This document shows positions 27,163-57,466 of a stretch of DNA of 64,000 bases, piece by piece. Numbering within the stretch: position 1 is the first letter of the stretch; each line of letters starts with the position of its first letter. The notes under the pieces were generated by a model that worked only from the letters and a program-made list of their open reading frames with translations, was not told the DNA's origin and did no database searches. A program made the position numbers and the translations under genes. Origin of the DNA: Azolla caroliniana (taxonomy: Eukaryota > Plantae > Polypodiophyta); NCBI GenBank assembly GCA_043228905.1, contig JBHGNT010000002.1:22010001-22074000 (forward strand). The letters are read 5' to 3'.

Positions 27163-27799
27163 AATCAAACATAGCCCAAATGGTAAGAGCTAACTTTACT
27201 TGAACAAAAGTGTTATGAGTTCAATGCAGATTAGAAGGATCATAGGGTAAAAGATATACAATTGCAAAAGACGAGAATTCATCTTGTTGTAACATGTAAA
27301 TGCGAAACTATGATATAATAATTGTGGAAGCTAAGTGACCATCTAGGGAGAAGTGGTGGTGCTTGCCATTCTACTTTTATTTGTCAAATGAGCTCTTGAA
27401 AGTTGTAAAAAGAAGTGAGCTCATTATTAGCTATTAAAAGAAGTGAACAAATCTCAAGGATGCATGGGGCCCCTATGTTGACAACATTGTTAATTCTTTG
27501 GCTACCAGAACATGTCATGAGGAGACCATCCTTTGACTTGTATTTCCACAAATAAACTAGTATTTGCTTCCAATATTGTTTGAGCTACAAAATCATGGAT
27601 ATGTGACATCAAGCTATTTTGAACTAGACAAACATTAAATAAATAACTCTTTTGACTTTCTATAAAGACCTATTTGGTTGTATCATGTTGCCAAAATAGT
27701 TCAAAGGAATTCCACCTCAAATTCTTGCATGCATTCTTGGCTAAGTGTAAAGAATAAGATATGATTCTGTGCAGCGGAAGAGATGTGTGTGTGTGTCGT

Positions 27800-27862
<63 letters not shown>

Positions 27863-29400
27863 ACAATATATATAGAAAACAACCGAAAAACTGTATTCAC
27901 AAGAACAAGAATGAACCAACTATTACAAATAGGAGGAGAGAGGTGCTAATGTAGTCACCTTCTCTCTATACAACCACCACTTACTAAAGAGTGGTGGAGA
28001 CTTAACTACACTAAATATGTGTCATAGAACTTTAAGGTTCTATGACACACTAGTTACTATATTAGGAGGTGGGGCGTTCACACTTGAGTATACTACGGTG
28101 TGTTCCCACACTAGGGAAGTTGAGTTTGATTCTCAACACGCCCCCTCAAACGCAACTTCCACTTGTCGAATAGTTGGTTCCAACTGGTCTTCGGGTTGGC
28201 TTTGTCTTTGGATGGCCGGCTTCGGATTGGTAACTCTGCAACGGTCAACGTCGTGTAGGACAGTTCCATACTCCCCCTCAAGCTCGACTGGTTAGCGGTT
28301 GAGAGACCTAGGTTCGTCGTGAACTGCAACAGCTTGTCGATCCCAATGGGCTTTGTGAATATGTCGACCATTTGCAGATTTGTGCTGATGTGTTGTAGGT
28401 CGATGTCTCCGGCGAAGACACGTTCTCAGATGAAATGATAGTGCACCTCAATGTGCTTAGTCCGAGCGTGGAAAATTGGGTTTCAGGCCAAGTGGATGAT
28501 GCTCATGTTGTTGCAATATAGGAGAATCAAATCCTTAATGGGAACACCCAGATCCTTTAATATTCTCTTAAGCCAAACAACTTCACATGCAGCGACAACC
28601 GCGCCCTTGTATTCGGCTTCTGTGCTCGATAGTGCGACTGTCAGCTGCTTCTTACTGGTCCAAGATATGGCTCCGGTACTGAGGGAGAATATGAATCCTG
28701 ATGTTGATCGTTTGTCGGCTTTGTAACCTGCCCAATTGGCATCGGTGTACCATTGGAGCCGAATCGTTATGGATGTTCTGTAGAGGATGCTGAAATCCAT
28801 GGTCCCACTCACATACCTTAGTACTCGCTCAACACAGTCGAGATGAATGTCACGTGGATTCTACATGAACTGGCTAACGAGGCCAACTGGATAGTTGAGG
28901 TCGGGTCGAGTAATAGTGAGGTAGATTAGGCTTCCGACTAGCTAACGATGGAAAGTTGGCTCACACTCTTCTGTGTCAGAATCGACATCTAGCTTTAGGT
29001 TTCGACTGAGAGGGGTAGCGATGGGCTTACACTCTGTCATCCCAAACTTGTAAAGAAGATTGAGGATATAGTGTCATTGGGAGATCATGATGCCGTCAGG
29101 AGTTCGAATTACTTCTATCCCTAGAAAGTAATGAAGCTCCTTCATGTCTTTCATTTAGAATCGGCCGGCGAGTAGCTTCTTGGTATGCTCGATATTGCCA
29201 ATGCGCTCTCCTCCAATGACCAAGTCGTGCAGATAAATTATGATGAATAGATGTCCTCTCGATTCGCTCCGGATGAATAGTTTCCTCTTCTACCGCATAT
29301 GGTAGATCCTTGCCACCGTCTGAACACTTTGCTCTTCTACCGCATATGGTAGATCCAGGTGTGCATGGAGAAGTCGTTGATGAATATCACATAATACCGG

Positions 29401-32400
29401 TGTCGTAGTGTATTTTGTACACTACGTGAAAAACGTATATAGTATTAGATTCAATAAAAAATGAAGAAATAGAAGAAAATAGCAAAATAAATGGAACATG
29501 CATAGGGCAAGATTCGAACCTTGCACCTCCATGTTAATAATGTAATGTCTTACTATTACACTAGCATTTCATTAGTGTTAAAGCATAGATGTCCCACATA
29601 GAAAGGTAAATTCACGCTAGGATAAACATTAGAAAAACGCATAACAAAAGAAAAAGCTACACATACACATTTAGCGTGCATGATAAAAAACGCACAAGTT
29701 AGAAAAAAGCATGATCACTTTAGATAAAGCATATAGTCTATCTATAGGAAAAGCATGGGGTCTATAGTTAGAGAAAAAGCATGGATTACTAAGACTTCCT
29801 CATCACTACATAAGGATGGGAAGCACAATGTAATTATGTGTGAAATACTTGGAAACTGGATATGTTTCTAAAAAACACCAATTAATAAACTATACTCGTG
29901 GGATTCACGAGAATTCTATATCATTCTCTTTCAACCGAAGTTTATATTCTTATATTCATATTGATTAATCTAATACAATACACTCGTGGGATTCACGAGT
30001 TTGCTATAACTCTTTCTTACAACATATTTATATTCTTATTAGCCTTAAAACTCTCCTCTTCCTAGTCCAAAACCCTTGCGGTTCCCACCTGACTCACGCA
30101 ACGATCTGGCGCCGAAAGGCACGACACAAGTTGGTGAACCCGACGTGAAGGCGGGTGGCAAGGAGATGGAGAATCAACAAGAGGCGATGAACATGATGAT
30201 GATAATGTTTGAGCGGATGCAACAAGAACAACGTGCGATGTCGGAGATGAAGGCGGCAGTAGAGCGGCTCGTACAACGAAACGGGGAATTCAACGGTAAG
30301 GGTGTGTCACGCTACCTACGTGAATATAAGGCGGAGATGATGCAATATCGGATACCGGAAGGATTGCAAGTGATATCCTTTAGTCGGGTGGCCTCGGACG
30401 AACTACAAGAGAGAATCCACAAGATACAACAACAAAACTCGACATGGGAGTCCTTTGAAGAAGCTTTACGGGAGGCATATGACTATGAGAGATGGACGGG
30501 ACGAGATCGATGAGAATTCGACGAATGGGTGGCGTCGGAGAAGACTCACCGAAGTGCAACGCAAGCGTTCCTAGAGTTCGAGCATCGTTTTGCTCGACTC
30601 TCGGAGCGGGAACGAAGATTGGTGGGAGAAGATAAAGTCTTAATGTTCGTAAGATCGATCGATCGAAAAGAAAGGATGGACATCGGGATCGAACTCGAAG
30701 ATGATGACGGTGCGAACGGTCTTACCGAGGATTGGGCCAAAGTCGAAAGGGTATGCCGAAGACATGATGAAAGGAAGCTGAGAATCTCGTCAACAACGAC
30801 ATGGCCCATGAAGGATGGTCGATTGAGGAAAAACGATGAAGCCAATATGAAGGCCGAAATACAACATGATGGTACCACGGGAGAAAGAGTGGAACAAGAC
30901 ACCCACTCGTCTTGTGAAAGAACGATGGCGAAGGATAAGGCCGATAATTCAAGTGTAGAAGGAAATTTCGGGATACAAGTGCCTGAGACATCGGGTCAAA
31001 AAGGGGTAAGCATAATAGATGTTTGCATAATTGATGCAGATAAAGAGTGTGAAGCGGATGTGATTAAGGAGGTAGCCACAAAAGACGAAATCGAATCGGA
31101 GGTGGCTATGGACGAATCAATGGCGGATTGCCATATCGAGACTTCCCCACCACTGATTCCAGAGACTCCGGCGGTTGCGATCGAAAGGCAACGTGAGACC
31201 GAAGAGACGGAAGGTGGCGGAGAGAAAACGAATGTCGAAGCCGACGAATACGATGAAGAGATAGCCGAGAAGAATGCTAAGGGTGAAACTACGAAAGAAG
31301 GTAATACCGAGGATTCATGCCAACAATATCTAGAGACTTCGGCGGTTGTGTCCGAGAACCAACGTGAGACCGGAGAGACGGGAGATGGCGGCGAGGAAGG
31401 TAAAGTCGGAAGTCGGTTCGGATGGAAAATGATCCATCCGAAATTCCAATCTAAAAGAACGTGCGACAATGCGGAGGTCGGGACTACGACGGGAGAAGCG
31501 CGTAATACAGAGCACGCTCTACGGCGAATAAAGAAACGCGTGTTATGGCGAATAAAGAAGCACGCGCTACGGCGAGAAAAGAAGCATGCATTACAACCAC
31601 ACGAGGACCGAACAACGAGCACATATCGGAGGACCTACGTAGCGAACAACGGAAAGAAGTGCCAAACGTCGAACCGGACAAGGCAGGTGAAAACGAAGAA
31701 AAGAAAGCAAATCCGGACGAAAAGAAAAGAAAAGAAACCGACCCGAAAGAGCACTGAATCGGTAAAAACCGATCAACCGAGTCCGGATCGACCGAATACA
31801 AATCGGAAAGGAAGCCGAACTAAACGAAAGACGATCCGACGAGACCGAATCGGAAGTAAGCTAATCCGACTAAACCGAAAATCCGAAAAGAAGTCGAGAT
31901 TGATGAAGAAAAGAAAGAGGGCAAGAAAAGATACTACCGCGGATGACAAGGACCAAGCGGGCCATGCAAAAAGCGAACGAAGACTATGGTGGATCGGATG
32001 TCGACAATGGTTCGGGTGGAAAGAATGGATGTGCTCCAAATGGAGAGACAAAGTCAACATAACAAGAGAAGTCGAGGGTACTACGAGCCGGCAACGAAAC
32101 CAATCGGGTAGAGACCGGACGGAGGAGACTAACAAACACCAACAACTTCGGCACATACCGGAGGATGTGCGGGTTTGGAGGGGGTGAGTGTCGTAGTGTA
32201 TTTTGTACACTACGTGAAAAACGTATATAGTATTAGATTCAATAAAAAATGAAGAAATAGAAGAAAATAGCAAAATAAATGGAACATGCATAGGGCAAGA
32301 TTCGAACCTTGCACCTCCATGTTAATAATGTAATGTCTTACTATTACACTAGCATTTCATTAGTGTTAAAGCATAGATGTCCCACATAGAAAGGTAAATT

Positions 32401-32914
32401 CACGCTAGGATAAACATTAGAAAAACGCATAACAAAAGAAAAAGCTACACATACACATTTAGCGTGCATGATAAAAAACGCACAAGTTAGAAAAAAGCAT
32501 GATCACTTTAGATAAAGCATATAGTCTATCTATAGGAAAAGCATGGGGTCTATAGTTAGAGAAAAAGCATGGATTACTAAGACTTCCTCATCACTACATA
32601 AGGATGGGAAGCACAATGTAATTATGTGTGAAATACTTGGAAACTGGATATGTTTCTAAAAAACACCAATTAATAAACTATACTCGTGGGATTCACGAGA
32701 ATTCTATATCATTCTCTTTCAACCGAAGTTTATATTCTTATATTCATATTGATTAATCTAATACAATACACTCGTGGGATTCACGAGTTTGCTATAACTC
32801 TTTCTTACAACATATTTATATTCTTATTAGCCTTAAAACTCTCCTCTTCCTAGTCCAAAACCCTTGCGGTTCCCACCTGACTCACGCAACGATCTGGCGC
32901 CGAAAGGCACGACA
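29401..32914 (+). mobile_element. Non-autonomous gag-only LTR element (type A), 3514 bp
   Basis: 726-bp LTRs 29401-30126 and 32189-32914, identical by eye; TSD CCGG; PBS tggtgaacccgacgtgaa (tRNA-Trp) at 30132; G-rich PPT; no pol. Confidence 0.95.
30166..32187 (+). pseudogene. Gag N-terminal domain fused to acidic then basic low-complexity tail (about 673 codons, one internal TGA at 30511)
   Basis: Two in-frame ORFs; GEFNGK..YLREYKAEM, VLMFVRSID and LTEDWAKVERVC align with the helper Gag at 36300. Confidence 0.85.
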
Positions 32915-35900
32915 CCGGCAACCACCAAATGTTGCCGTTTGGCCCTATACATTTGAATGTACTACATCTAGGATCCTTTTGCTCACGTTCCTCTCTTTTG
33001 GGAACGGTTGACGATGATGTTTTCCGAAATTGACAGGCTTCACATACACTTACAATCTCCTTTTCGGTAAAAGTCGGGAGTCTGATGACAACTCCTTTCA
33101 ACTGCATTCCTTTGGGCTTTTGGGGATTGATGTGGCCGATTCCTTTGTGCCACAACTCTATGTCGGTGTCCACTTTACAGCCCTTGGCATACATTGCCGA
33201 TTTCATCTCGTGAGAATCGAGGTTGAACATTCAGCCTTCTCTTCGACCATGAGCGATATTTCAGCCTCCGTCATTGAATCAAACTTGCATGCCTTGTTCC
33301 ACGATCTGGCCGACCGAGACCAGATTCTTCATTATAGTTGGAACATGCAAGACGTTACCCACATGCTGAATGGGGTGAATTGTGTCATCCCCAGTTTCCA
33401 CATATCCGGGCTCTCGAAACCAATCTTCATGAGACGTCATGTGATTGGATGCACCCGAATCGACAAAACATACATTAAATTTTTCCGAGTTGGAGGTACT
33501 TGTCGGACATGCTGCCATCATTGAATTCGCTCTGTGTCGCATCATGAACATTCCATCACGATCTTCGTAATTGGAGTTTGAGGTGCAGTTGGTGAGTTGC
33601 CGGCTTGTGAAGGACGACTCACTCTTCTTCTGTCAACACTTTGCCTCATATTGGCCGAATTTGCCACAATATCCACACTGGGCGGAATTGTTTTGTCGGA
33701 TGGGGGCGGCATGATTGCTCCCCCTTCTACCAGATGCTCTGCCTCGCGCGTTCAACACGTCTTATTGGTAGTAGAAATTGTGTTCTCAAGGTTGTTCCTA
33801 GTTGTATTAGCCTTGGCCAAATCAGCCACTTCTTCCCCGACCTTGTCATCTTCCTCCATTGAAATTCGGATAGAGCATGTGTCCTTGCACATTGCTTCTT
33901 GTCCGAACATAATTTTCTTCGACTAGTAGCATCGACTAGAGATCGAAGAAGGTGGGAGGATTCTCCGTCGCGAGGATGACTGACCTTATCACGCCGAACC
34001 GAGGTGCTAAGCCACCGATGCATATTTGCACCGATTCATCGTTGTCGATGTTGACGTTGATTGACCCGAGGGAGTCACACAACTCCTTGATCTTCAAGGT
34101 GTAGCTTCCGATTGATATGTCCCTCTGTTGTATACTATTCAACTCTTGACGAAGTTGAAGCTTTCTTGCGGTCATGTTGGCCGCGAATATCTTTTTGAGA
34201 TTCCCCCATGTCTCCTTTGGTGTTTTGGCCTCTTGGATACCCACCGAGAAGGTATTGGCGCATCTTGTATTCCCAAGATACAAAGTTGTTTGTGTCGAGT
34301 TTCTCGGTGGGAAGAGCGCTTCCCATATGAGTATTGATGTTGATTGATTTGTATTGAGTGGGTTTTCTTCTTCTCTTGATACGAACAGTGCAGGTTGTTG
34401 TTACAATGATCGGTCGGTTCTTCTTGAACGTAGAGTTAGACACAACACACACGGATATGATAGGCTTGGATCAAGCTACCAAGCGCTTTGATACCATGTA
34501 AAGAATCGGATATGATTCTGTGTAGCGGAAGAGATGTGTGTGTGTGTTGTCGAGAGAGAGAGAGAGAGAATACAATGTATATAGAAAACAACCGAAAAAC
34601 TGTATTCACAAGAACAAGAATGAACCAACTATTACAAAGAGGAGGAGAGAGGTGCTTATGTAATCACCTTCTCTCTATACAACCACCACTTACTAAAGAG
34701 TGGTGGAGACTTAACTACACTAAATATGTGTCATAGAACTTTAAGGTTTTATGACACACTAGTTACTATATTAGGAGGTGGGGTGTTCACACTTGAGTAT
34801 ATTAGGTTGTGTTCCCACACTAGGGAAGTTGAGTTTGATTCTCAACACTAAGAAATCAATGATAGAAATTATGATTGCACTATTGTAGCAATCCATGCAT
34901 AGGCCACTTTACAAATTTCCAATACATCAACTTTTCATCTTTTTAAGTTCTCAAGTTGCTTGATCTTTGGCAAGAATATTGCACATTAGAGGATATCTAA
35001 GATGGAGAACAATCTTATTTCGAATGTCATCAGTGAATTATGAAAAGAAGCATCTTACAAAAGTTCAATCCGGCAACTAAAGCATAAGTCCACTTGCATC
35101 AATAAAAGTCCACTAGGGCACAAAGGTACAATCAACAACATATGGTTACGTGTTTGACGATGACAATTTTACACCTTTTAGACTATTACGGCACCATGAA
35201 CACATTTAGTAGTTAAGGTGTTGAATTCAATACCACTATTACGAACCCTTAAATGTAAATGAAATGTAAAGTGACTAGATACCCTAAACCAAATGTTGAA
35301 AGCCTAAAAAAGAAAGAAATTGAAGAAGAAGAAAACCAAAAAGAAAGAATTCAAAGAAGAAAAAGATTCAAACCATAGACCTAACAAATCTTACAAATAA
35401 CTCTAACTACTACCCTATTCATTTTTGCTTTATTATCTTACTATTTTATACTTTATTAGCTTTACTTTTTTGAGAGTCGACCTCCTACCTAGAGTTGGTG
35501 GGGCTCCTGGTGACAGAAACAGTTAGACAACCAGGCTCCTGGTGACAGAGTCGGGCTCCTAGTGATAGAGGCTGTCAACTTTTTATCCACATCGGACGGT
35601 GCAGATTGCATGTTGTCGTGAAGAAAATCGGCCATAGGCGGAATCAGAGAAAAAGGCGCATGAACCGGCTCTTACATGGGTGGACGCGAGAATTGATATT
35701 TTGTACATAATTCATAATTAGGCCGGCTAATGTAAATACTAGGTAGTACACGTTTCCTAGGGGATTTGTGCGTATCTCTGCCGAAAGGGACAGGGAATAA
35801 AGCGATTTGACAAGGGGGGAGGGTGGTCTCCCCTCAGCGAACTATTTAAGGAAGGAGAGAAGGAAGAGGAAGGGGGGGGTGTGAGCAAGGACGAAGTGTT

Positions 35901-36158
35901 GCAGGATCGAGTGACGAGCTCTCTCTCCTCCTCTGATCGTCATTTTCTGTGGGTGTTGGGAGTTTGACGCCTCTGCTTGGTGGGTAGCCCGTGCGCTGCC
36001 AGCAGAGGCTCTCCCTTCTACGTTTTTTTGGGTCCAGTGTGTTCCGTCTGTGTGCGTGAGTAGGGTCCCCGTGTCGGGTCCATCGCTGGCTTGCCGGTTG
36101 TAACCGTCAGAGTTTGTAATCTCTTGATATTGTAATCGACTGTTATTGTAATTAGAGG

Positions 36159-36194
<36 letters not shown>

Positions 36195-36299
36195 TGGTTC
36201 AAGGCCCTCGTGGTCCCGCCTCTTTCTGCACGCGAAGTGCGTGATAACACGACATATTTGGTGAACCCGACGTGAAACAGGCGGCAAAGGAGTCGGAAG

Positions 36300-38426
36300 A
36301 TGAGGGGATCGGAGCTAACAGAGGCAATGGCGGTAGCCGTCGACCAGCTGGTGAGCGCTCGCGAGGGGACGGGTACCCTCGACAGAGCCATTGAATCGAT
36401 CGTCGGTAGCATAGGCCGATTTGGTGGGAAGAATCCCACAAGTTATTTGGAGGCTTACCGGGCCGAAATGATCATGAGGGATATCCCGGTGGACATGCGG
36501 TTGTCCGGATTCCCTCGGGTGGTGACGCCGAGCATCCACGTGGAGGTGCTGGCCGGATGCCAGACTTGGGAGGAGTTCGAGCTGCAGCTCCTCGAGAAGT
36601 ACGAGTTTGATGACTCGCTTCGGCTGTCGAGGCGGGACTTCATGGCGTGGGTGGAAAGCCCCGGAAAGGGGAGGAACACGTCGGCGCTCCTCCAGGAGTT
36701 CGAAAAGCGATTCGCGCGGCTGTCGACGCTGGACCGGACCGTGCTCGAAATGAGTCGAGTACTACTGTTTGTCAAGTCGGTGAACGCACTCGATAGGGAA
36801 AGGGTGGGTCCCCTATTGGAGACGGACGAAGGGCTCACGACAGACTGGGCCGTGGTAAAACGGGTCTGCAGCCGTTTCGACAAACGACGCGAGTGGAGCG
36901 ACGAAAGCTCGTCTGAGTCAGGACCGGTCCCGACGAGGAGGCTCGAGGAGCCGGTATCGGTGCCAGTTGGTAGGAAGGAAGAGACCCGAATTTGGCTGGA
37001 GTCGGGGTCGGCATCGAACGATGTGGTCAGAGGCCCATCCGGAGGAGCGGCTCTAGAGGAGCTGACACAGATGGTGCGCGACCTGCAGATTGCACAGGCC
37101 CGGAGAGACAGCGGCGAACAACCTCGCGACCGGAGGCCGCTGGCTAGGCAATGGTGCATGTGGTGTGATGCGATCGGTCACATTCGGAAGGATTGCGCGG
37201 ATTTTGCTGACGCACTCAGGACCAACGTGGTGTACCTCTGGAACGGGCGGGTGCACGCGAGCGAGACCCGGAGAGCCTTAGAACTGAATACGGGGCGCGA
37301 CGGAATGAAGAAGTTGATGGAAGAGGCCGCGACACGGCATGTAGAAGCCGTTAACTACTCAATGTCGGTGGGAATTCGAGTTGGGGGTGATGAGAACCGG
37401 AAGACGAAGGACTCCGGATTCTGGCCGCTAGTGCAAGAAGGCCTCTCTGGAGTTCGGCTGAAGAAGGAAGAGGTGGACCGCGCGGAACAACGGGTCTAGG
37501 AGGTCACCAGATGGGACAATCCGGTCGAAGAGAAAACGGGCTTCGTAGAAGCCGCTTGCCAGAACTACGAGGTTCTAGTGGAAGACAAACGGGCAGGAAA
37601 GGCAGGAGGGGTCGGTCCCCCGCAGAGGTACGAGACCCGGTTCAGACCGAAACCGACTGGTACCGGCAACCCAGGCGCGCCGAATGGGAAGAAGTAGGCG
37701 GGGTTTCGGTTGAGCACTGAAATCGAGAGAGCAATAGACCTACGGAAGGTCCTTGAAGAGCGAATCCTCGACAATAAAGTGGAGATCTCGTTGCGGGAGG
37801 TGCTGGGAATCGCCAAGAGGGAGTTCCACGACTCCATCGTAGACTTGGTGAAGCCGAAGAGGCTCTCGATGGAGCCGGAACCGGAGAAGCCAATGGAGGT
37901 GCGGCCTACGCACGTAGAAGACACGACCCTAGAAGACGAGTTGGCTGAAAGCCACTACGCGAAGCCGCATTGGGCCAGGGCAACTACAGAAACCCTTGTG
38001 CGGATCGGCGACGTTCCGGAACCGGTGGTGGCGTTGGTAGACCATGGATCCGAAATCAACCTGATGTCCATGGATTTCTACAAGAAGGGCAAATGGCCGA
38101 TCAACACCAGGCATCGGTGGAAGATACGCGTGGCGGCGCGTGCTACGGAGGAGCTGCATGGTGCGTGCCCGAAGGTACGCGTAAAGGTCGGTGATGTCGA
38201 AATAGATCAACATTTCTTCGTGCAGGAAACATCTTCGCACCCGGTGATTCTTGGCGAACCGTACATTACGACAACACACATGGAGACGAAGGTGCTGGAC
38301 AACGGTTCGGCGTACCCGCGCGTCAAGAGCCAAGACGGTCGGCATTCCGTCCAGTTCATGACCGTACGTCCGAACCATGAGAGGAATCGCGAGAACCTCG
38401 ACGGCGACAACCGAGGGGATTTTTAG
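36300..38426 (+). pseudogene. Helper gag-protease ORF (two internal TAG)
   Basis: CMWCDAIGHIRKDC knuckle and VALVDHGSEINLM protease in one frame, stops at 37497 and 37696. Confidence 0.9.
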
Positions 38427-38482
38427 AAAGGGCTATCAAGGCGTGGGGCCGCGGTAGTCCGGACGTATCGGAAGACCCCCAC
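38417..38482 (+). promoter_or_regulatory. Putative -1 programmed ribosomal frameshift signal (G GAT TTT plus H-type pseudoknot)
   Basis: Heptamer 38417-38423 directly before the gag-pro stop; 6-nt spacer; stem 1 gggctatc/ggtagtcc; stem 2 gtgggg/ccccac; the -1 frame is open into RT. Confidence 0.7.
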
Positions 38483-39238
38483 ACATGTACAGTAGGTAGG
38501 AAGTTTTGGTTCTCTGAAAACGGAGGTTGTACTATAGCCGGCGTCAGCGGCCGGGAGAGGAAGCGAGTGGAGGAGCGGCTCAGGGGATGCGGAGTCCTCT
38601 CCATCGACGAAGAAATCAGTGGCACCATGGAGGCGGTCTCTTTTGACGACACCTTGGGCGAGTTGCGAAAGGTGATCAGTGAAGTCCTTAGAGGAGACTG
38701 GACCGTTCCGGTTAGTTCGATGGGAATGTACGAAGTCATTGCGGACTTTTGGGAAAGGATCGGGTCGGATCGGACGGCCCGTGTGGATACAAAGTACAAG
38801 ACTGTGGACCGAAAGGTGAGGCCAGTCACGACACCCTTGCCGGAGGGCAGCGAGGAGCGGATAAAAGGGGTCGCGTCGGACCCAAGTTTACGGAATCCAG
38901 CTGGCATAGGGCACCGGTTCACCGACATAACACTACGGGAGCTCAAGGTCGGTGGGGGTGGCTTTCTACTGTCGGAGGAGATCGGGTGCGTGGACCCAAC
39001 GATCGTTGAACCGATGGTGATCTTCACGATACCGCCTGTACCGTGGAATCTCAAACCGATTCCGGTGCCAAGAGCTCACATCCCGAAGTTGATGGAGCTT
39101 CTGAAGCAAAAGGTGGAGATGGGCATCCTCGAACCGTCGAGTGCCCCATATTCGAATCGGTGGTTTACGGTGCCAAAGAAGAACGACACGTTGCGCTTCA
39201 TTCAGGACTTGCAACCGGTCAATAGGTTGACCATCCGT

Positions 39239-42200
39239 TGTCACGTTGTTACGCGCGTGCGTGTAGAAGGGCGGGACCACGGGGGTCTTGGACTAGGGAG
39301 TGGAGGAGAAAGATTAGCTCAAGAGGAGAAGAGAACGAATATGACAATATGATAGAAGAAGAAGATGCAATCAAGATACTTAACAAGAAGTTCTATTAAG
39401 AAATGAACGATTACAACAAATGGTGGCCGCCATGGCCGCACCAAACGACTATATGAAAAACCCTAAAGGAAAACCCAAGAAGAAAAGCCTAACCGAAACC
39501 CTAACCCTAAAATGAAATTGGAAGAAGTAGAACCCTCGACTAAGTGGTATACCTTACTCACACAAAATAGGCAACCCCCACAATGGTGCCTTCTCTCTCC
39601 TTTTATAGCACAAGGAGGGAAGACCGCTTACAAAAGTGAGACTAAAATATCCCCTTTCATTCAAATGGGATATTTGCCTTGATTTGGGGGAGGGTGAGAT
39701 TGATGGCCCCTTAACTCCCACCTCCTCACAAACAACTAGGTACCTATGTACCGCATAGTACCTCTCTCTCTCTCTCTTTCTCTCGCGTGGATGTGCGTAC
39801 AACCACATCACCTTTATACCTTTATTACTATTACAAATACATTATGTACGTGTGCAACGTTGTACATCGCTCTTTGGCTTTCGTTGCTCGAGTTTCCGCT
39901 TGTGGACGAAAATCTTCACGACATCCGCCCCCACCTAACCGCACATCCTCCGGTATGTGCCAAAACATAGGGGAGAGAACACGAGATTTTCGGCCACGAC
40001 GACCGACCGAGTCCTTAGTGTCCTCGTGGGCCCGCCCGGCTTTGTCTTCCACTTCGAGCAAGACCACCCCATCCTCACGAACCGCCGCCGCCTTCCGGCC
40101 CACCATCCTCGCCGAATGGTCTCGAACCGTCGGCGCCATCCGATCCGCCACACTCGACGATGTTCGCCGAGTCGTTGCCTCGACCCGATCCGCCACGTCC
40201 ACCGTGGGTCCTTGAACCACCAACTACATCCGACCCGCCGTATCCGATGCCCGTGCTTTCCTCCCTGTTCGGTCCTCCCGAACGCCGTCGCCGACCCGGT
40301 TGCTCTTCCTTTGTCCGCCTCGTATATCCTCCGGATGCACTCCCGGTCGCATGCCAGATTCCGCCCTTTGCGTGCCGCACACCTCGGCGTGCCGACTCTC
40401 TCCGCTCCGCGCTTGCCTTCCGTAGGCTTTCCCCGTATGTCGATGTTGCCCTCCAAATGCGTGCTCGTGCTTCGGTCCTTCGATGACCCCATCACGCGTT
40501 TTTCGCTTTCCCCTTTTTCGCCGTGCTCTGTCGTAGTAGAGCGTATCGTCATCCCGACCTCCGTGTCGGTGTCCCTCGAGGCTCTCGTTATCGCCTCGCC
40601 TCGACTTGCGCCCTCTTGGCCCGCTTGGCCTTGTATGCCCTCCGGGAAGCCGCCGCGCTTTCTCTTCCCGGTGTGTACCCCGTTGTTCTCTGCGCATCTC
40701 CTCCGTTTTCCTAGATATGACTCTCCGCTCATGCCGATCGCGCTCGGCCCATGTCGTCGATCTTGGTGTTTCGCCGCGCCGTCCTTTGTCTCGCGCTTGC
40801 CTCTCGAAGGCTTGACCCAACCGTCATCGTCGGTCAATTGTTGTCGCCCATCCGCCGTATGCATGCTTGTGTCTTGGCCCTCCACCGGCCGTATTGCATG
40901 CGTCTCGTGTCGTGCTTCCGCCGTAGACCCGACCTCCGCGTCAGTCTCCAACTCCTCGCCGCCACCCACCGCTTCTTCGTTCTCCTTTCGATCCGCGACC
41001 GCCGATGCCTCACGGGTAGGTGTGGAGGGTTCCTCCCACTCTCGGTTTACCACCGAGTCCTCGCCTCTCAAAGGCTCAATCGGTCCACCGTTTCCGGTCA
41101 CTCGTTGACGCTCTCTCGGATGCATGCTCGTTCTTGGGCCCTTCACCGACCGTAGTGCATGCTTCGTGTTACACCCTTCATCTGCCGTAGACCCAACCTC
41201 CGCGTCGGCCACCAACTCCTCGCCGCCACCCGCCGTCTCTCCGGTCTCACGTTGATCCGCAACCGCCGAAGTCTGTAGAATGGGTGTGGAAGGTCCCTCT
41301 CGCTCTCGGTATTCTAGCAAACCGTGATCACCGTGCCCACTAGGCCTCCTTCTCGCTCTCACCGGCTCCCACCGTAACCGTACCCGGCCGGCTACGAATC
41401 GATCAAACAATCCCGGTCTTGCCGGCTTCCTTCGGTTCGTGCCCGGTTGATCGGCCCCCGCTTCACTCTTCTTCCGCTCCGCCTCCCGGTCGGGTCGGTT
41501 CCCGACTCGCTCCTCGATGCCGCTCCGGACCTCTCCTTCGGTCTTTTCGCACGTGCCCACTCTGGGCCTCTCATCCTCACGGCCACCGCCCATCTCCCCG
41601 GTCTTATGTCCGCGCTCGGGCGCAACCGCCGAAGTCTCCGGCCCCGGTGTCGAGGGATCTCGCCTCCGTCCGCTACAAACCTCCTCTTCGTCATTTCGGT
41701 TGCCCGCCTTGCCGCCGCCACCGTCCGTCTCTCTAGGTCTCACACCGGCTCTCGGGCCGGTTGCCGGAGTCTCTAGGACCGGTGTGTGGAAGGTCGCGGC
41801 ACCGCCGCTCGTCTCCTCTTCTTCCTCGATTTCGCAAGCCTCGAGTATGCTCGCGAAATCCTCGTAGAACGTTTCGGGCAACCGCGTCCCGAAACTTTCG
41901 CCCACTCTCGAAGTGGCATCCATTGCTCCGTAGATATCGGCCTCATCCATGGCCGTCCTCTTTCCACAAGTCGAGAGGGTCGCTCGCTCCACACCCTCTC
42001 CCACATCGTTGCCGTGGTCGTCCGCCTTGTCGCCGCCACCGTTCATTACCCTAAGTCTCACGCGGGCACTCGGGCCAGCCGCCGCGGTCTCTTGAACCGG
42101 TGCGTGTAAGGTAGCAACGCCACCGCTCGTCGATGATATGCCCGTAGCCACCTCCATTCGGACATCGTCGTCCGTGGCTACCCCGCCTCCGTATGTGCAA

Positions 42201-44086
42201 GCATCAATTATGCTTGCCGCCTCCTCTTCCACGGTCTCCATACCGTCGTCTCGGTTGCCCGCCTTGCCGCCGCCACCGCCCGTCGCTCTAGGTCTCACGC
42301 CGGCAATTGGGCCGACCGTTGGTGCCTCTAGGGCCGGTGTGTGTAAGGTTGCGGCACTGCCGCTTGTCTCCTCCTCCCTCGATGTTTCGGGCCGCCATGT
42401 CCCGAATCCGTAGTTACCGGCCTCCATGGCCGTCCATTCGCCGCAAGACGAGAGAGTCACTCTTCCCGCACCCTCTCCCACATCGTCGCCGTCGTGGTCG
42501 CCCGCCTTGCCGCCGCCACCGCCCGTCACTCTAGGTCTCACACCGGCTCTCGGGCTGGTTGCCGGAGTCTCTAGGCCCGGTGTGCGTAAGGTTGCGGCAC
42601 CACCGCCCGTCTTCTCCCCGCTCGATGTTTCGGGCCTCCATGCCCGAACTCCTTCATGTTCGCTCGAATCGGCGATCGCCGCCTCACCGTCCCCGACCTC
42701 GTCCTCGGTCGATCTTTCTCCGCATGTCGAGAGGGTGGCTCGCTCCGCACCCTCTCCCGTGGTACCGATGTACCATTCTCTTTCGGCCTCCTCATCCTCC
42801 GATCGCCTCCGGCCCGACTCCATAATAAGCCCTTCTTCGGCTTCGATTTTCCCCTTCACAAGCTCGCATGCCTCCCGTATTAGTGCTTCTAGGTCTAGCT
42901 CCTCCGAACCGTTTTGCGTTGAGCTCTCTTCCGGCGGTAGTGCGTACTCACTCGCCGCTCTCTCTTCTCCACCGTTCGCGGGCCATGTTGTTGCCGACCG
43001 CTCCCCATCGGGTTGCCCGCATACCCACTCCGGTTTCGCGTATCCATACGCTTCCAATAGAGCTCCCTCGAAAGACTCCCATGACTCGTGAGCTTCTCGT
43101 AGCTCCTTGACGTCCTTGTGCACCGATACGGCCGCCACTCGCGGAAAATACTCTAGTCGCATCGCCTCGTCCACGCCCCCTTTTGCCATCTCGGCCTTGT
43201 AGGCTCCCAAAATTTTTAGGACCTCATTCCCATTGAACCGGCCGACTCGATCGACCACCCTTTCGACAGCTTGTTGAGCCGCATCTCGCTTCGCCATCTT
43301 CCGTCCGGCTTCCATCACGATTTTTGCCATCATCTCCTCGAAGTCGAAGTCTTCTTCCATTTCCATGCTCCCTTGCCGCCCTTCACGTCGGGTTGACCAT
43401 CCGTTGTCGCGTTGTTACGCGCATGCGTGTAGAAGGGCGGCACCACAGGGGTCTTGGACTAGGGAGTGGAGGAGAAGATTATCTCAAGAGGAGAAGAGAA
43501 CGAATATGACATTATGATAGAAGAAGAAGATGCAATCAAGATACTTAACAAGAAGTTCTATTAAGAAATGAACGATTACAACAAATGGTGGCCGCCATGG
43601 CCGCACCAAACGATTATATGAAAAACCCTAAAGGAAAACCCAAGAAGAAAAGCCTAACCGAAACCCTAACCCTAAAACGAAATGGGAAGAAGTAGAACCC
43701 TCGACTAAGTGGTATACCTTACTCACACAAAATAGGCAACCCCCACAATGGTGCCTTCTCTCTCCTTTTATAGCACAAGGAGGGAAGACCGCTTACAAAA
43801 GTGAGACTAAAATATCCCCTTTCATTCAAAGGGGATATTTGCCTTGATTTGGGGGAGGGTGAGATTGATGGCCCCTTAACTCCCACCTCCTCACAAACAA
43901 CTAGGTACCTATGTACCGCATAGTACCTCTCTCTCTCTCTTTCTCTCGCGTGGATGTGCGTACAACCACATCACCTTTATACCTTTATTACTATTACAAA
44001 TACATTATATACGTGTGCAACGTTGCACATCGCTCTTTGGCTCTCGTTGCTCGGGTTTCCGCTTGTGGACGAAAATCTTCACGACA
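39239..44086 (-). mobile_element. Non-autonomous gag-only LTR element (type B), 4848 bp, inserted in the helper RT
   Basis: LTRs 39239-39923 and 43405-44086 with few differences; TSD CCGT; PBS tggtcaacccgacgtgaa; PPT aggtgggggcgga; no pol. Confidence 0.95.
39935..43366 (-). CDS. 1143-aa protein: about 110 aa of Gag N-terminus plus a long repetitive low-complexity tail
   Basis: Uninterrupted ORF filling the internal region; VGRFNG..AYKAEM..WESFEGALLEAY matches helper Gag; ATLHTPxLETPAxGPRAGVRPRxTGGGGGKAG-like repeats occur four times. Confidence 0.8.
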   Translation of the reverse strand: MEMEEDFDFEEMMAKIVMEAGRKMAKRDAAQQAVERVVDRVGRFNGNEVLKILGAYKAEMAKGGVDEAMRLEYFPRVAAVSVHKDVKELREAHESWESFEGALLEAYGYAKPEWVCGQPDGERSATTWPANGGEERAASEYALPPEESSTQNGSEELDLEALIREACELVKGKIEAEEGLIMESGRRRSEDEEAEREWYIGTTGEGAERATLSTCGERSTEDEVGDGEAAIADSSEHEGVRAWRPETSSGEKTGGGAATLRTPGLETPATSPRAGVRPRVTGGGGGKAGDHDGDDVGEGAGRVTLSSCGEWTAMEAGNYGFGTWRPETSREEETSGSAATLHTPALEAPTVGPIAGVRPRATGGGGGKAGNRDDGMETVEEEAASIIDACTYGGGVATDDDVRMEVATGISSTSGGVATLHAPVQETAAAGPSARVRLRVMNGGGDKADDHGNDVGEGVERATLSTCGKRTAMDEADIYGAMDATSRVGESFGTRLPETFYEDFASILEACEIEEEEETSGGAATFHTPVLETPATGPRAGVRPRETDGGGGKAGNRNDEEEVCSGRRRDPSTPGPETSAVAPERGHKTGEMGGGREDERPRVGTCEKTEGEVRSGIEERVGNRPDREAERKKSEAGADQPGTNRRKPARPGLFDRFVAGRVRLRWEPVRARRRPSGHGDHGLLEYREREGPSTPILQTSAVADQRETGETAGGGEELVADAEVGSTADEGCNTKHALRSVKGPRTSMHPRERQRVTGNGGPIEPLRGEDSVVNREWEEPSTPTREASAVADRKENEEAVGGGEELETDAEVGSTAEARHETHAIRPVEGQDTSMHTADGRQQLTDDDGWVKPSRGKRETKDGAAKHQDRRHGPSAIGMSGESYLGKRRRCAENNGVHTGKRKRGGFPEGIQGQAGQEGASRGEAITRASRDTDTEVGMTIRSTTTEHGEKGESEKRVMGSSKDRSTSTHLEGNIDIRGKPTEGKRGAERVGTPRCAARKGRNLACDRECIRRIYEADKGRATGSATAFGRTEQGGKHGHRIRRVGCSWWFKDPRWTWRIGSRQRLGEHRRVWRIGWRRRFETIRRGWWAGRRRRFVRMGWSCSKWKTKPGGPTRTLRTRSVVVAENLVFSPLCFGTYRRMCG

Positions 44087-45307
44087 CCGTAATGCAGGAA
44101 TCGGATCGACCATAGACGAGTTCGCAGAGGCCTTCGCTGCAAGGTCGATCTATTATGTCGATGACTTATACTCGAGGTACGACCCATTCTAGCTAGCCGT
44201 GGAGAGCAAGGATATCATGACGATGCGAACTCCTCTTGGCCTAGTACGGATGTGTACCCTACCACAAGGCGAGACGAATTCGGTGGCGCATATGGTGAAT
44301 GCAATGAACAAAGTGCTGAGGGACTGCATCCTGGCCATCACCATGCCATTCTTGGACGACATCCTGATAAAGGGGTGTCCGGTGGAAGATGCGGACGAGA
44401 CTGTCGGGCTGGACGTATGCAAAGGTTCGTCGTGAACCACATCAACGACTGCGAGAAGGTGTTGCAGAGGCTGGAGAGCGCACGATTCACCTTCTTCGGA
44501 GAAAAATCGGCGTTCAGGCAATCAGAGATCTTGGTGGTTGGACACCTGTGCGGGCCTCACGGTAGGAATCCGTCTCCGGCAAAGGTAGAAGCCATCTCCG
44601 CGATGAAGGACGACTGCGGGTCGGTTACGGAGGTCCGCAGATTCTTGGGGGCGTGTGCGTTCTACCACATTTGGATTCCGCACTACGCGCATGTTGCGGA
44701 GCCGCTCTACGGGCTAATGAAGAAAGGGTGTAGGTTCGAATGGAGGACGGAGCACACGGGTTCGGTCCGGAGACTAAAGGAGGCGCTTACGGTAGCACCA
44801 GCTCTCTGTAAAGCGGCTTACGGCAAGGGAGTCCCCATCTACGTGACGGTGGACACGAGCCCGATCGGGATCGGGTGGGTGATCAATCAGGAGAACAAGC
44901 ACGGCGTACGGTTCCCGATCCGGTTCAGGGCGAAGGTATTGAGCGAGCGGCAACGGGGATACGCCCAAGTTAAGCGCGAGCTTTGGGGTATCGTTTCGGC
45001 AGTCAAGGCCGACGAGGACTATTTGATCGGGACGGAAGTGATCATCGATACGGACTGCCTACCGGTACTCGGCATGGTTTCCTGATGCGCGACGCCGAAC
45101 CTAGCAATGCTCCGGTGGATAGCGTACATTAAGTCCCTGAACCCGGAGATACGGCACATCTCCGGAAAGGATAACACCATGGCCGACATGCTTTCGAGAG
45201 CGAGGTTCAACGACGAAGACGACATGGTTTCGGATGACGAAGAAGTCAGCGAGGACTTCTTCGAGTCGGCTAACGTGACGACGAGGAAAGGGGACACTCC
45301 GATGCTT

Positions 45308-46068
45308 TGTTAGGAAACAGGTCCCTCCGGATGGATAAGGAGTACCCGGCTACGGAGAGCCGGATGGTGCATACCCGGTAGAAACCGGATGAGGAGTACC
45401 CGGCTACGGAGAGCCGGATGATGCAGACCCGGTAGAAACCGGATGAGGAGTACCCGGCTACGGAGAGCCGGATGATGCAGACCCGGTGCAGAACCGGATG
45501 AGGAGTATCCGGCTACGGAGAGCCGGATAGTGTAGGCCCGGTGTGAACCGGATGAGGAGTACCCGGCTACGGAGAGCCGGATGACACAGACCCGGTGCGA
45601 ACCGGAGGAAGAGACATATTCGTAAATATGTTTCTAAGAGCCCATCGAGGCTACATTTGTAAATAGCCGAAAAGTCATATTAGTATAAATATGACTTAGG
45701 GCAAACTTTATATGTAGTTGTCATTCTTGTTGGAAAAAGATAGAGAGAGAGCGCGTAACTGTGTACAGAGAGAGAGAGAGAGAGAGAAAGAGGTCGTTGC
45801 CTTTGTTGTAACCGCCGCCTGTGGCGAAGATCCATGAGCACGAGGTCGGTGCCTCAGTGAACTCACTGTTGTACATACTTACATAGTGACAGTTTGCAGC
45901 CTGTGGGTTGCCGTGGTTTTTCCCCCTAGTTTGGGGTTTTCCACATAAACATCCTGTGTACCATTTCTCTCCTTTGCGTCGCGTGTTTTTCGTTTCCTGT
46001 TTTCTGTGTATGAAAAGAATCTCGGTTGTGGCCGAGCGTCGTGCATAAGGAGCGTTGAGTTCCCGACA
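45308..46068 (+). mobile_element. Solo LTR, probably Copia (Tork-like), 761 bp
   Basis: TG..CA termini; 5-bp TSD TGCTT; cgtggtttttccc..ggggttttccac motif; removal restores helper GDTPML|NEFD. Confidence 0.88.
45328..45605. repeat. Five tandem ~54-bp CCGG-rich units inside the solo LTR
   Basis: ccggatgaggagtacccggctacggagagccggatg..cccggt..aa repeated five times. Confidence 0.95.
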
Positions 46069-48052
46069 TGCTTAACGAATTTGACGAAAGCAGGTACGAC
46101 GGGGAGTGGCTCCAAATCGGGAGGTTCCTACGGGCGATGACGCCGGACGCAGCGTGGACAAGAGAAGAGGCGAGCTGGGTACGGAAAAAGGCGTACCGAT
46201 TCTTCCTACGGGACAGGTGCATATGGAGGCACCCAAAGAAAAGAAACAACATCCTGCTCTGAGTAGTGGCAAAGGAAGAAGAATAGGAGGAATTACTGGC
46301 GGCATTTCACGAGAGTCCCTGGACCGGGCACCGCGGAACGTGGGCCACATTTGAGAAGCTGAAGGAGAAGTACTGTTCGCCGAGGCTGTACCGGGATGTG
46401 CATCGGTTCTTAACGACTTGCGAAAGCTGTCAGATGCACTCCGTAGTCCGTCATCGGGACGAACTACAGCCGACCTACCCGCCTACGGTCCATTTCAAGT
46501 GGATGGTGGACTTGGTGACAATGCCGATGGGAGTAGGACAGATGCGATACCTGGTGCTTGCGTGAGAAGATTTAACGAACCAGGTGGAAGGCCGTGCACT
46601 GCAGAACAAGACAACCGCGGCGGTATGCCGGTTCCTGACCGAACAAGTAGTGTGTCGGTACGGGTGCATCGGGAAGATCGTGGCGGACCGGGGAGAGCTG
46701 GATGCGCGGGAAGTTGAGGAGTTGTTCGACCGGCTAGGGGTCAAACTCTCCCTCACTACGGCGTACAATCCAGAAGCGAACGGGAAGGTAGAACGTGGGC
46801 ATGGGCCGATTGTAAAGGCGTTGGTGCGTGCGTGTGGAGGGCAGGTCAGGAATTGGCCGCGGCTCCTTCCTTACGCACTATGGGCGGACCGAACTATGCA
46901 CAATTCGGTGACAGGGTTTATACCGGCAGAGCTGATGTATGGACAGAAGCCGATCATGCCGGTGGAATGGACGGTTTCTTCATGGGCGGCGGTAGATTGG
47001 AAGGACGAGATGAGCCGGGAGGACTTGCTGGCGGCGCGGATTCGGCAACTCGAGCAGAGGCCGGAGGACATAAAAAGGGCAAAGGAAAAGCTGCGGGCGG
47101 CAAGGGAGCGGAACAAGACCCGGTTCAACCGGACGCACCGGTTGCGAACCAAGAAGATCGAGGAAGGTGACTGGGTCTTGGTGTACGACAACAACCTCGA
47201 CAATCAGCACAAGGCGGTGCGAAAGTTCGCGAGGAGATGGTTTGGGCCCTACACGGTGACGAGCGCGAACGACAACGACACGTACCACCTTGCGGAAGTC
47301 GACGGGACACGGTTAGCGGTACCGGTGGCCGGGAAGCGGGTCAAAGTGTTCAAGAAGCGGTTCGAAGACGAGCCAGAGCCGGCGAGCGAGAGCGACAACG
47401 ACGATCGGTTTGGGCCCGACGAAGAATCGGAGAGCGACGAGTGAAGCCGGTTTTGTTCGGTGTCTACCCGTCTTTGGCGCATGCCGGTGGATGCGCGGTT
47501 TGGTGGGGGTGGATGTCGTGAAGAAAACGGGCCATAGGCGGAATCAGAGAAAAAGGCACATGAACCGGCTCTTACATGGGTGGACACGAGAATTGATATT
47601 TTGTACATAATTCATAATTAGGCCGGGTAATGTAAATACTAGGTAGTACACGTTTCCTAGGGGATTTGTGCGTATCTCTGCCGAAAGGGACAGGGAATAA
47701 AGCGATTTGACAAGGGGGGACGGTCTCCCCTCGACGAACTATTTAAGGAAGGAGAGAAGGAAGAGTAAGGGGGGCGTGTGAGCAAGGACGAAGTGTTGCA
47801 GGATCGAGTGACAAGCTCTCTCTCCTCCTCTGATCTTCATTTTCTGTGGGTGTTGGGAGTTTGACGCCTCTGCTTGGTGGGTAGCCCGTGCGCTGCCAGC
47901 AGAGGCTCTCCCTTCTACGTTTTTTTGGGTCCAGTGTGTTCCGTCTGTGTGCGTGAGTAGGGTCCCCGTGTCGGGTCCATCGCCGGCTTGCTGGTTGTAA
48001 CCGTCAGAGTTTGTAATCTCTTGATATTGTAATCGACTGTTATTGTAATTAG

Positions 48053-48122
<70 letters not shown>

Positions 48123-48941
48123 CCTCGGTTCAAGGCCCCCGTGGTCCCGCCTCTTTCTGCACGCGAAGTGCGTGACAACACAACAACGCGCCCTCAGTTG
48201 AGCAACCTGCACCGTCTGTGCCCACGATTCCCTCACTTGCCCTCTTTAATATTTGGTAGTAGTTAGACACGAGCGATATATATACATATACATATGTATA
48301 TATATATGTGTGGTTGGTGACTATTTCCTACCAAATCGTAATGAGGCCCAATGAAGGACTCACGATTGTTAGAGACGGTGCTAGGGCGTGTTTCAATAAT
48401 CCGATGCGATCGGCATCGTCAAATTATTATCCTCACAAAATAGTGTGCCCTTAACTAACCTAGCTTTGACCAGCCTCTATCACGTATAGGTCAGGTAGTT
48501 CGAATTTCTAGCCCAACTCTATCATGTCTAACCTAGGAGTTTGTCACATCTAACCTAGCTCTCTCCAACCTTTGTCAAGTCGGACCCCCGACTTTGTTCT
48601 TGCTTCTGTCACGTCTAACTTGGCCCAAAGTTGCTAACTCAACTGACTTTTTTTTATAACCCGGACCCCCCCTTTCTAACCGGGCGCAAGTTTCGAACCA
48701 AGTTATTTGTTTCTAACCCTAAACATATTCAAAAGTCAAAACCTCTTGGTTTTCAATATAAAAACTCCACTCACCAAAACCTTGGGCCATCATCGAATGT
48801 AAACAAAAAGTCGGAAATCATTGCAAACACCTAAGCTTCTCATGTTTCATCTATCGCAAAAAATTTAGCCAGTATTTTGAAGAGACTAGAACCTTGAAAG
48901 ATCACAAAATTTTAGTTACGAAAAACTTTGAAGATAACACA

Positions 48942-56300: not shown

Positions 56301-57466
56301 TTAGACGTTTGCGCCGGTCGCGAAAATGACGACCGTCCGTGTTTTGCTCGCAGTAGCCGCGGCCAAGGGGTGGCACTTACATCAGATGGATGTAAAGAAT
56401 GCGTTCCTGCAAGGTGACCTTGAGGAACAGGTGTACATGGTGCAGCCCCCCGGATTTCACTCCGGAACGAACTCCTCGGCAGTATGCCGACTGAAGAAGT
56501 CCCTTTACGGACTGAAGCAAGCCCCGCGTGCCTGGAACGCAAAGATCACGCAACAACTGCGTCGGATGGGCTTCGTCACGTCAAAATCGGACTCTTCCCT
56601 GTTCATCCAAAAAGGTCGACTCGGACCGGTTAGTATTTTACTATATGTTGATGACTTGGTCATCACCGGCGCCGACCTAGGTGAAATCGACCGCGTGAAA
56701 CTCCAGCTTGCGGCATCGTTCGACATGAAGGATCTGGGGGACCTTCATTACTTCCTCGGGATCGAAGTGATCCGTACCACCGAAGGCATATTGATCAGCC
56801 AACGTCATTACGTGCTGAGTATGCTCTTCAAACTCGGGATGGCCAACTGTAAGTTCATCTCGACTCCTTTGGATAGAACCGTCAAGCTTCGTCCCGATAC
56901 GGGAAAGGTATGCAACTCGACGAGGTTCCGACAAATTGTCGGAAGCCTCATATACTTGACCATCCGGTCGGGGTGATTAGTCAGTTCATGGCGCGACCTA
57001 CCGAGGAGCACCTTCAGTGTGCACAACGCATACTTCGGTATGTCAACGGCACTAAGGACCGGGGACTGCTATATCGGACCGGTGCAGCCGCGCAGTTAGT
57101 CGGCTACACTGATGTTGATTGGGCTGGCAACGCCGCCGGTCGCCGATCCACGTCTGGATACGCGTTCTCCCTCGGGAGTGCCGCGATCGCGTGGAGCAGT
57201 AAGAAGCAGCTTACAGTTGCACTGTCGAGCACCGAAGCTGAGTACCGAGGAGCGGCTGTTACGACATGCGAAGCCATATGGTTGAAGCGGCTACTTAAGG
57301 ACCTGCAAGAGGAGGTGTCAGATCCAACGACGATCTACTGCGACAACCTCAGCAGCATCCAGCTCGCGAAGAACCCCGTTTTTCACACACGGACCAAGCA
57401 CATTGAGGTGCACTACAATTTCGTCCGTGAGCGTGTCCTTTCCGATGAAGTCAAACTTCAGTACGT
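53326..57466 (+). mobile_element. Ty1/copia, 5' LTR through RNase H, 3' end missing
   Basis: LTR 53326-53712; PBS tggtatcagagc; [58 protein letters not shown]; gag deletion, stops and frameshifts. Confidence 0.95.

What the first reader, a model, noticed from the sequence alone, without database searches (positions are those of the whole stretch)
39225..43404. Element B sits at a helper RT site identical to its own spacer plus PBS for 14 bp
ggttgaccatccgt lies immediately outside the 3' LTR (39225-39238, helper RT codons R-L-T-I-R) and also immediately inside the 5' LTR (43391-43404, spacer plus PBS). B's PBS differs from the tRNA-Trp match of the other elements (tggtCaaccc versus tggtGaaccc) exactly as the target does. 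Its spacer (acgga) differs from theirs (tatt, caagt) and begins with the TSD. Possible explanations (inference): homology-guided targeting of the helper RT, priming on a read-through transcript from the 3' LTR followed by conversion, or local gene conversion.
Basis: partly seen in the sequence, partly recalled or inferred. Interest (0 to 1): 0.75.

Follow-up and report, generated by a model that had tools for sequence, protein, structure and literature searches.

The report
Retrotransposon copies its flank inside itself
The 14-base match is real but is not how this jumping gene chose its site: it is the longest of nine cases in this plant genome where DNA just outside one terminal repeat also stands just inside the other, likely copied there by repair between the two repeats after insertion.

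Summary
The 14-bp identity is confirmed, but it does not reflect targeting. B is a non-autonomous Phygy-like gypsy element with a 4-bp CG-centred TSD (ACGG) inside the RT region of helper A. Its spacer ACGGA is unique among 1,418 family junctions; 1,399 start with T, mostly TATT/TCTT. The RT site is filled in 5 of 356 copies, in both orientations, and two other helper sites are hit as often. Genome-wide, 9 spacers start like a TSD. All 7 checkable ones match their own element's flank for 3-14 bp and end at microhomology. The mirror event, polypurine-tract end replaced by the own TSD, was found twice against 5,319 normal junctions. LTR differences are depleted next to the overwritten junction when pooled (p about 0.009), but not in B. 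Best reading: gene conversion or templated repair between the two LTRs spilling past the LTR end; B's flank resembles the tRNA-Trp PBS, which likely let the copy run furthest. No reads of this individual were available to exclude an assembly error.

The parts
39225..39238 (-). 3' flank of B (element sense ACGGATGGTCAACC): TSD plus 10 bases of host RT sequence that resemble the PBS; likely donor of the copied tract
   Evidence: the same site is empty in 351 other helper copies
39227..39227 (+). Rare host allele T (common allele G) that lengthens the match to the PBS; origin unresolved
   Evidence: 2 of 351 empty sites carry it; the nearest relative on the right flank, L054, has G
39235..39238 (-). 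TSD copy at the 3' LTR (ACGG in element sense)
39239..39923 (-). 3' LTR of B, 685 bp, TG...CA
39924..39939 (-). Polypurine tract of B, of the family's usual form
39938..43366 (-). 1,143-codon ORF of B: gag-like N-terminus, repetitive remainder, no pol domains (non-autonomous, inferred)
   Evidence: 40% identity over 78 aa to A's first ORF, E 5e-13; no Pfam hit; internal repeats
43382..43399 (-). tRNA-Trp PBS of B, 17 of 18 bases complementary, variant C at 43395
43391..43404 (-). Overwritten tract: spacer ACGGA (43400-43404) plus the first 9 PBS bases, identical to the 3' flank
   Evidence: unique among 1,418 junctions
43405..44086 (-). 5' LTR of B, 682 bp
44087..44090 (-). TSD copy at the 5' LTR
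35614..48185 (+). Host (helper-type) gypsy element A, 7,720 bp without B; LTRs 35614-36254 and 47514-48185, spacer TATT, tRNA-Trp PBS at 36259, broken RT/RNase H/integrase ORFs

Best explanation
B inserted at an ordinary CG-centred target in helper A, and afterwards the DNA just outside its 3' LTR was likely copied over the spacer and the start of the PBS just inside its 5' LTR by gene conversion or templated break repair between the two LTRs. Shown: the target fits the family's VCGB preference; the spacer is unique; eight other elements carry their own flank at the inner edge of the other LTR, at either LTR end. Inferred: a break or gap at or near the 5' LTR end paired with the 3' LTR, DNA synthesis or heteroduplex ran past the LTR end into the flank, and the strand rejoined the internal region at microhomology (AACC or TGGT in B; TTG, GT or GG in the others). 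B's tract is the longest because its flank matches the PBS at 8 of 9 bases (inferred). In B the event was old or barely entered the LTR, because differences remain 5-43 bp from the LTR end.
For: Spacer census: 1,399 T-starting and 19 other junctions, B the only ACGGA. TSDs: C in 53 of 57 and G in 54 of 57 at the two central positions. Nine spacers begin VCG genome-wide. Seven could be checked and all match their own flank: B 14 bp; C21:11577041 8 bp; C14:10684621 6 bp; C7:9505971 and C14:14336420 4 bp; C5:16751556 4 bp (5' TSD only); C945 3 of 4. Mirror cases at the PPT: C2:17838921 (6 bp) and C14:5660594, against 5,319 normal PPT junctions. First TSD base matching in all nine by chance: about 2e-5. 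Four of the five family-C cases have canonical-spacer copies as nearest neighbours, so the spacers arose separately. Differences next to the overwritten junction are depleted: pooled p 0.009 over 8 cases against 0.28 for 10 controls; 0 of 15 against 6 of 18 in the last 200 nt, p 0.02. In C14:5660594 the PPT holds CCGT while the donor flank now reads TCGT, so the copy predates a mutation.
Against: B itself and C14:10684621 show no homogenised LTR end (nearest differences at 5 bp), so a long tract is not seen in the focal case. The family-C cases are as young as controls (0-0.8% LTR divergence), which also fits an event at integration. Two VCG spacers could not be resolved (C18:3688864, C9:17098969). 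The rare host T at 39227 is not explained by one-way copying. The depletion test rests on few differences, my choice of cases and a uniform null. No reads of this individual.
Confidence: 0.7

Rival explanations
1. Integration-coupled copying: the overwrite happens during repair of the integration intermediate. A strand already joined to the target templates the inner edge of the opposite LTR, possibly with exchange in both directions.
For: B and C14:10684621 have no homogenised LTR end. Several cases are very young. Aberrant cDNA-end products exist in these families. The host's rare T matches the PBS base.
Against: Pooled depletion of LTR differences beside the junction, clearest in C14:5660594 (none in 278 nt, 16 in 1,027). 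Exact 4-bp TSDs imply concerted integration of two complete ends (established integrase chemistry).
Confidence: 0.14
2. Assembly or polishing error: reads from one LTR junction were placed on the other.
For: No independent run holds either junction of B. Homogenised LTR ends in the young cases could also come from misplaced reads.
Against: B's two LTR ends differ at 5, 19, 37 and 43 bp from the junction, which misplaced reads would have evened out. In C14:5660594 the copied bases differ from the present donor flank.
Confidence: 0.07
3. RNA route: priming or template switching on a read-through transcript from the 3' LTR, then recombination of that cDNA with the parent locus.
For: The flank pairs with tRNA-Trp at 8 of 9 bases.
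Against: No daughter with ACGGA among 1,418 junctions. The PBS holds C, not the tRNA's G. The other eight flanks are not PBS-like beyond 1-3 bases, and PPT-side cases cannot arise from tRNA priming.
Confidence: 0.05
4. Homology-guided targeting: spacer plus PBS or tRNA guided B to the helper RT site.
For: Five separate insertions at this exact site, well above the average VCGB site (about 9 insertions within 1,500 bp in 88 copies with about 125 such sites each).
Against: Three of the five are in the orientation that puts no PBS-like sequence behind U5. Sites at +575 (3 of 88) and about -1131 (2 of 88) are hit as often (p 0.20). Apart from this site, none of 81 flanks reach 6 of 9 PBS matches. 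Spacers start with T, yet T is the rarest first TSD base (3 of 57, 0 of 24).
Confidence: 0.03

Closest known systems
Intra-element LTR-LTR gene conversion in plants (Jedlicka et al. 2020, PMC7251063, passages read; Cossu et al. 2017, PMC5751070, title and passages read)
   Same: Non-reciprocal transfer between the two LTRs of one element. Jedlicka et al. report possible conversion in 25% of LTR pairs, with tracts mostly 100-1,000 bp.
   Different: In the passages I read, conversion is inferred statistically inside the LTRs (GENECONV). I saw no mention of tracts running past the LTR end so that the TSD or flank replaces the spacer, PBS start or PPT end. Supplements of these two papers were not read.
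Phygy clade of non-chromovirus Ty3/gypsy (Neumann et al. 2019, PMC6317226; passages and supplementary table row read)
   Same: 4-bp NCGN TSD, tRNA-Trp PBS (81% of Phygy), size range 7,656-9,968 bp (host A 7,720 bp).
   Different: B is a 4.85-kb non-autonomous derivative. No RT tree against reference Phygy sequences was built.
Templated insertions of polymerase-theta-mediated end joining or short-tract SDSA (recalled; search listing only)
   Same: A short copy from a nearby template, closed at 1-4 bp microhomology.
   Different: Here priming would use a 500-1,000 bp repeat 3-7 kb away. The repair pathway was not tested.
Nested autoinsertion hotspots of plant LTR retrotransposons (Jedlicka et al. 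2019, PMC6911290, passages read)
   Same: [quoted passage not shown]
   Different: Explains the site choice, not the 14-bp copy.

Membership tests
Phygy (Ty3/gypsy) | 4-bp TSD of form NCGN | tested here: met
   B ACGG; C in 53 of 57 and G in 54 of 57 5' flanks, 23 and 24 of 24 3' flanks; definition
Phygy (Ty3/gypsy) | PBS for tRNA-Trp | tested here: met
   7 of 8 loci holding the matching 3' sequence are tRNA-Trp(CCA) genes
Phygy (Ty3/gypsy) | Autonomous size 7.7-10 kb | tested here: met
   Host A is 7,720 bp without B
Phygy (Ty3/gypsy) | Polyprotein spans nearly the whole interior, RT-RH-INT order, no extra ORF | tested here: inconclusive
   RNase H then integrase in A, but the ORFs are broken and only partly scanned
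Phygy (Ty3/gypsy) | RT/RH/INT phylogeny groups with reference Phygy | not tested
   No reference sequences were in hand
Intra-element gene conversion | Non-reciprocal: donor junction kept, recipient overwritten | tested here: met
   Both TSD copies and the 3' flank of B are intact while the spacer is replaced; the rare T at 39227 may be a small exception
Intra-element gene conversion | Donor is the element's own other LTR junction | tested here: met
   7 of 7 checkable spacers and 2 of 2 PPT ends match their own flank; 2 spacers unresolved
Intra-element gene conversion | Homogenised LTR tract next to the overwritten junction | tested here: inconclusive
   Pooled p 0.009, but absent in B and C14:10684621
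Intra-element gene conversion | Occurs after insertion (both states of one insertion seen) | not testable with these tools
   The five runs laid do not hold B's junctions
Homology-guided targeting | Inserts at the site share guide sequence and orientation | tested here: not met
   3 sense and 2 antisense, five LTR types, ACGGA only in B

The most novel reading that the evidence does not exclude
Phygy integration has a side route in which the freshly joined target DNA templates the inner edge of the opposite LTR, so the element writes its own target site into its primer-binding region or polypurine tract. In B the exchange ran both ways, giving the host RT a PBS base. Such rewritten spacers would be heritable and a source of the spacer variety seen between subfamilies.
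Probability: 0.12. Interest if true: 0.7.

Novelty: new variant of a known kind. Interest (0 to 1): 0.4.

Why it matters
LTR-LTR conversion biases every insertion date taken from LTR divergence, yet it is normally inferred only statistically. A TSD standing in the spacer or at the PPT end marks single events directly and gives their direction. It could be counted in any assembled genome (here roughly 0.04-0.4% of junctions, a lower bound). The overwrite also touches the two priming signals, so it can alter or disable a copy. The more exciting idea, homology-guided targeting of a helper's RT, is not supported.

Tried and rejected
Public runs: 20 listed, none with half of the stretch's words. 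Five runs were laid (X1, X4, X5, X6 on the 5' junction; X1, X2, X4, X5 on the 3' junction). No listed contig bridges either junction, so they say nothing on an assembly error. Chimeric U5 in B: rejected, because the excess of differences in the last 25 nt is family-wide (18 of 82 differences in 18 control pairs). Inheritance of the host T from the T-bearing copies L052/L087: not supported, but the trees are star-like. One-base spill-over: 7 of 12 single-base spacer variants match their first TSD base, about 4 expected (hand count), inconclusive. Dropped as not TSD-derived or not matching: C17:7452460 ACAGT (tail-to-tail fusion), CCAGT, CCATAG, CCAATT. ACATT and CCATT match two bases only and were not counted. 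Several other variants had no traceable flank. L085 and L086 were base variants, not insertions, and are left out of the 356. Reverse direction (spacer replacing the 3' TSD): three family-C 3' LTRs end in CAGT, but unprocessed cDNA ends explain them equally. None of 30 examined of 48 B-family hits was a 3' LTR ending in spacer plus flank; 29 still had a PBS. Literature searches for the spill-over listed nothing on it; the library lacks most subscription papers. Earlier scan notes: none near this place; those listed for the genome concern another family.

Full report
Observation. The window holds nested LTR retrotransposons. B is a minus-strand element of 4.85 kb, with its 5' LTR at 43405-44086 and its 3' LTR at 39239-39923 (14 substitutions and 3 gap columns in 685). 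It has one long ORF, gag-like at the start and without Pfam hits. It sits in the RT region of the plus-strand gypsy element A with a 4-bp TSD, ACGG in element sense. The 14 bases after the 3' LTR and the 14 bases after the 5' LTR are identical, and the next base differs. The PBS is complementary to tRNA-Trp(CCA), whose genes I located in the genome, except for C at 43395, which equals the flank.

Family. TSDs are CG-centred: C in 53 of 57 and G in 54 of 57 5' flanks. Neumann et al. 2019 (PMC6317226, passages and one supplementary row) give a 4-bp NCGN TSD, a tRNA-Trp PBS and 7,656-9,968 bp for the Phygy clade. A without B is 7,720 bp. I call the elements Phygy-like; no tree against references was built.

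Is the spacer a family trait? No. With B's LTR end and PBS pattern, 1,399 junctions have a spacer starting with T (mostly TATT or TCTT in the 100 listed) and 19 do not. B is the only ACGGA. All 29 other copies fetched by B's junction have other spacers, 27 of them TCTT or TATT. The PBS C alone occurs in 4 copies with normal spacers.

Is the site targeted? The RT site is empty in 351 copies (349 with G, 2 with B's host allele T) and filled in 5: B, an antisense solo LTR, two sense solo LTRs and a sense element, all with different LTRs. That is well above the average VCGB site. But in 88 sampled helper copies the site at +575 was hit 3 times and one near -1131 twice (junctions read by eye; Fisher p 0.20 against the focal site). 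Apart from this RT site, none of 81 flanks reached 6 of 9 PBS matches, and T, the first base of normal spacers, is the rarest first TSD base. The site is a preferred integrase site, not a homology-guided one.

B is one of a class. Three searches for spacers that begin like a TSD gave nine loci, B included. A second family, C (1,279 junctions, usual spacers CAGT, CAAG, CAAGT), supplies five. All seven that could be checked match their own flank. They are B, 14 bp; C21:11577041, GCGTCTTG, 8 bp; C14:10684621, GCGTTG, 6 bp; C7:9505971, CCGT; C14:14336420, ACGT; C945, ACG of ACGG; and C5:16751556, CCGT, equal to its 5' TSD, its 3' LTR end being lost. Two could not be traced. Four of the five family-C cases have canonical-spacer copies as nearest neighbours; the fifth has no close relative in the sample. 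Each copied tract ends where flank and normal sequence share 1-4 bases (read from the sequences). The mirror event exists too: two PPT ends read CCGT in place of CGGA, against 5,319 normal ones, and in both CCGT is the element's own TSD. The first TSD base matches in all nine cases, chance about 2e-5. The searches only see cases with a CG-type start and an intact PBS or PPT, so the counts are lower bounds.

Timing and route. In six cases no LTR difference lies within 200 nt of the overwritten junction; C14:5660594 has none in 278 nt but 16 in 1,027. Pooled over the eight cases with differences, p is 0.009, against 0.28 for 10 family-C controls. This is what a conversion tract contiguous with the overwrite would leave. 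B and C14:10684621 do not show it (nearest differences at 5 bp). Their excess of terminal differences is family-wide, so it is no sign of chimerism. In these two the event was early, or entered the LTR by only a few bases. The family-C cases are as young as controls, which conversion itself could cause but which also fits an event at integration. Because it happens at both LTR ends and with flanks unlike a PBS, it does not depend on tRNA priming. I infer pairing of the two LTRs during repair, copying past the LTR end, and return at microhomology. B's flank matches the PBS at 8 of 9 bases; about 0.3 such flanks are expected among 1,418 insertions by chance, and more given the recurrent site.

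Open point. The host base T at 39227 is rare, and the nearest relative on the right flank has G (star-like trees). Either a chance mutation lengthened the homology and favoured the event, or one base passed from the PBS to the flank. With the common allele the 5' junction could still be made by copying 11 bases.

Assembly error. No run of this individual was found. Five other runs do not bridge either junction. Internal evidence argues against an error: B's LTR ends keep their differences right up to the junction, and in C14:5660594 the copy preserves CCGT while the donor flank now reads TCGT.

Known work. Conversion between the LTRs of one element is reported as common in plants (PMC7251063, passages; PMC5751070, title and passages). 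Nested insertion with GC-centred 4-bp TSDs is described (PMC6911290, passages). My searches listed no report of the TSD or flank overwriting spacer, PBS or PPT; PMC13570524 (passages) does not mention it. Polymerase-theta templated repair is recalled and was seen only as a search listing.

Verdict. The feature is real and is a new variant of a known process. Targeting is rejected. It is useful as a direct, directional footprint of LTR-LTR exchange. Interest 0.4.

Noticed in passing
L333/L334 (G000:C14:2975954-2975987); also L338 (C17:7446720), L325 (C4:12185864): Family-C LTR ends fused tail to tail with both 4-nt spacers kept (CA-CAGT|ACTG-TG in the clean case). This suggests unprocessed cDNA ends joined to each other and that the linear cDNA extends 4 nt past CA.
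   Followed up: partly
L331/L383 (G000:C11:10476290-10476325): Two LTR ends fused across a 22-nt copy of the tRNA-Trp 3' end, 4 nt longer than the PBS, suggesting reverse transcription beyond the usual stop in the primer.
   Followed up: partly
L332, L336, L339 (C13:4390387, C15:8840889, C17:12705238): 3' LTRs followed by the spacer CAGT in place of the TSD seen at the 5' end: unprocessed ends, flap ligation or reverse-direction conversion.
   Followed up: partly
helper copies L060, L063, L135 (+575 from the RT site) and L122, L132 (about -1131): Recurrent independent insertions at single CG sites of the helper, in both orientations; site preference goes beyond the 4-bp motif.
   Followed up: partly
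window 29400-32914: Element C, LTRs identical over about 728 bp, TSD CCGG, spacer CAAGT, 557-codon ORF without Pfam hit, lying between an older repeat pair at 27746-28139 and 34497-34848.
   Followed up: partly
window 57467-62349: Element D, a B-like minus-strand copy with spacer TATT, inserted just after copia-type pol ORFs (54001-56304); TSD ACGT with one side now ACAT.
   Followed up: no
G000:C8:17.80-17.82 Mb, C16:4.99-5.11 Mb, C5:10.11 Mb: Clusters of the tRNA-Trp 3' sequence, about 1.2 kb apart on C8; the two C5 loci scanned are tRNA-Trp genes.
   Followed up: no
window 45279-45613: Five copies of a 54-bp repeat between the RNase H and integrase regions of A.
   Followed up: no
L304 (G000:C9:17098969): An LTR preceded by a PPT and followed by GCGGTT plus a full PBS; no partner LTR found in about 40 kb fetched.
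   Followed up: partly
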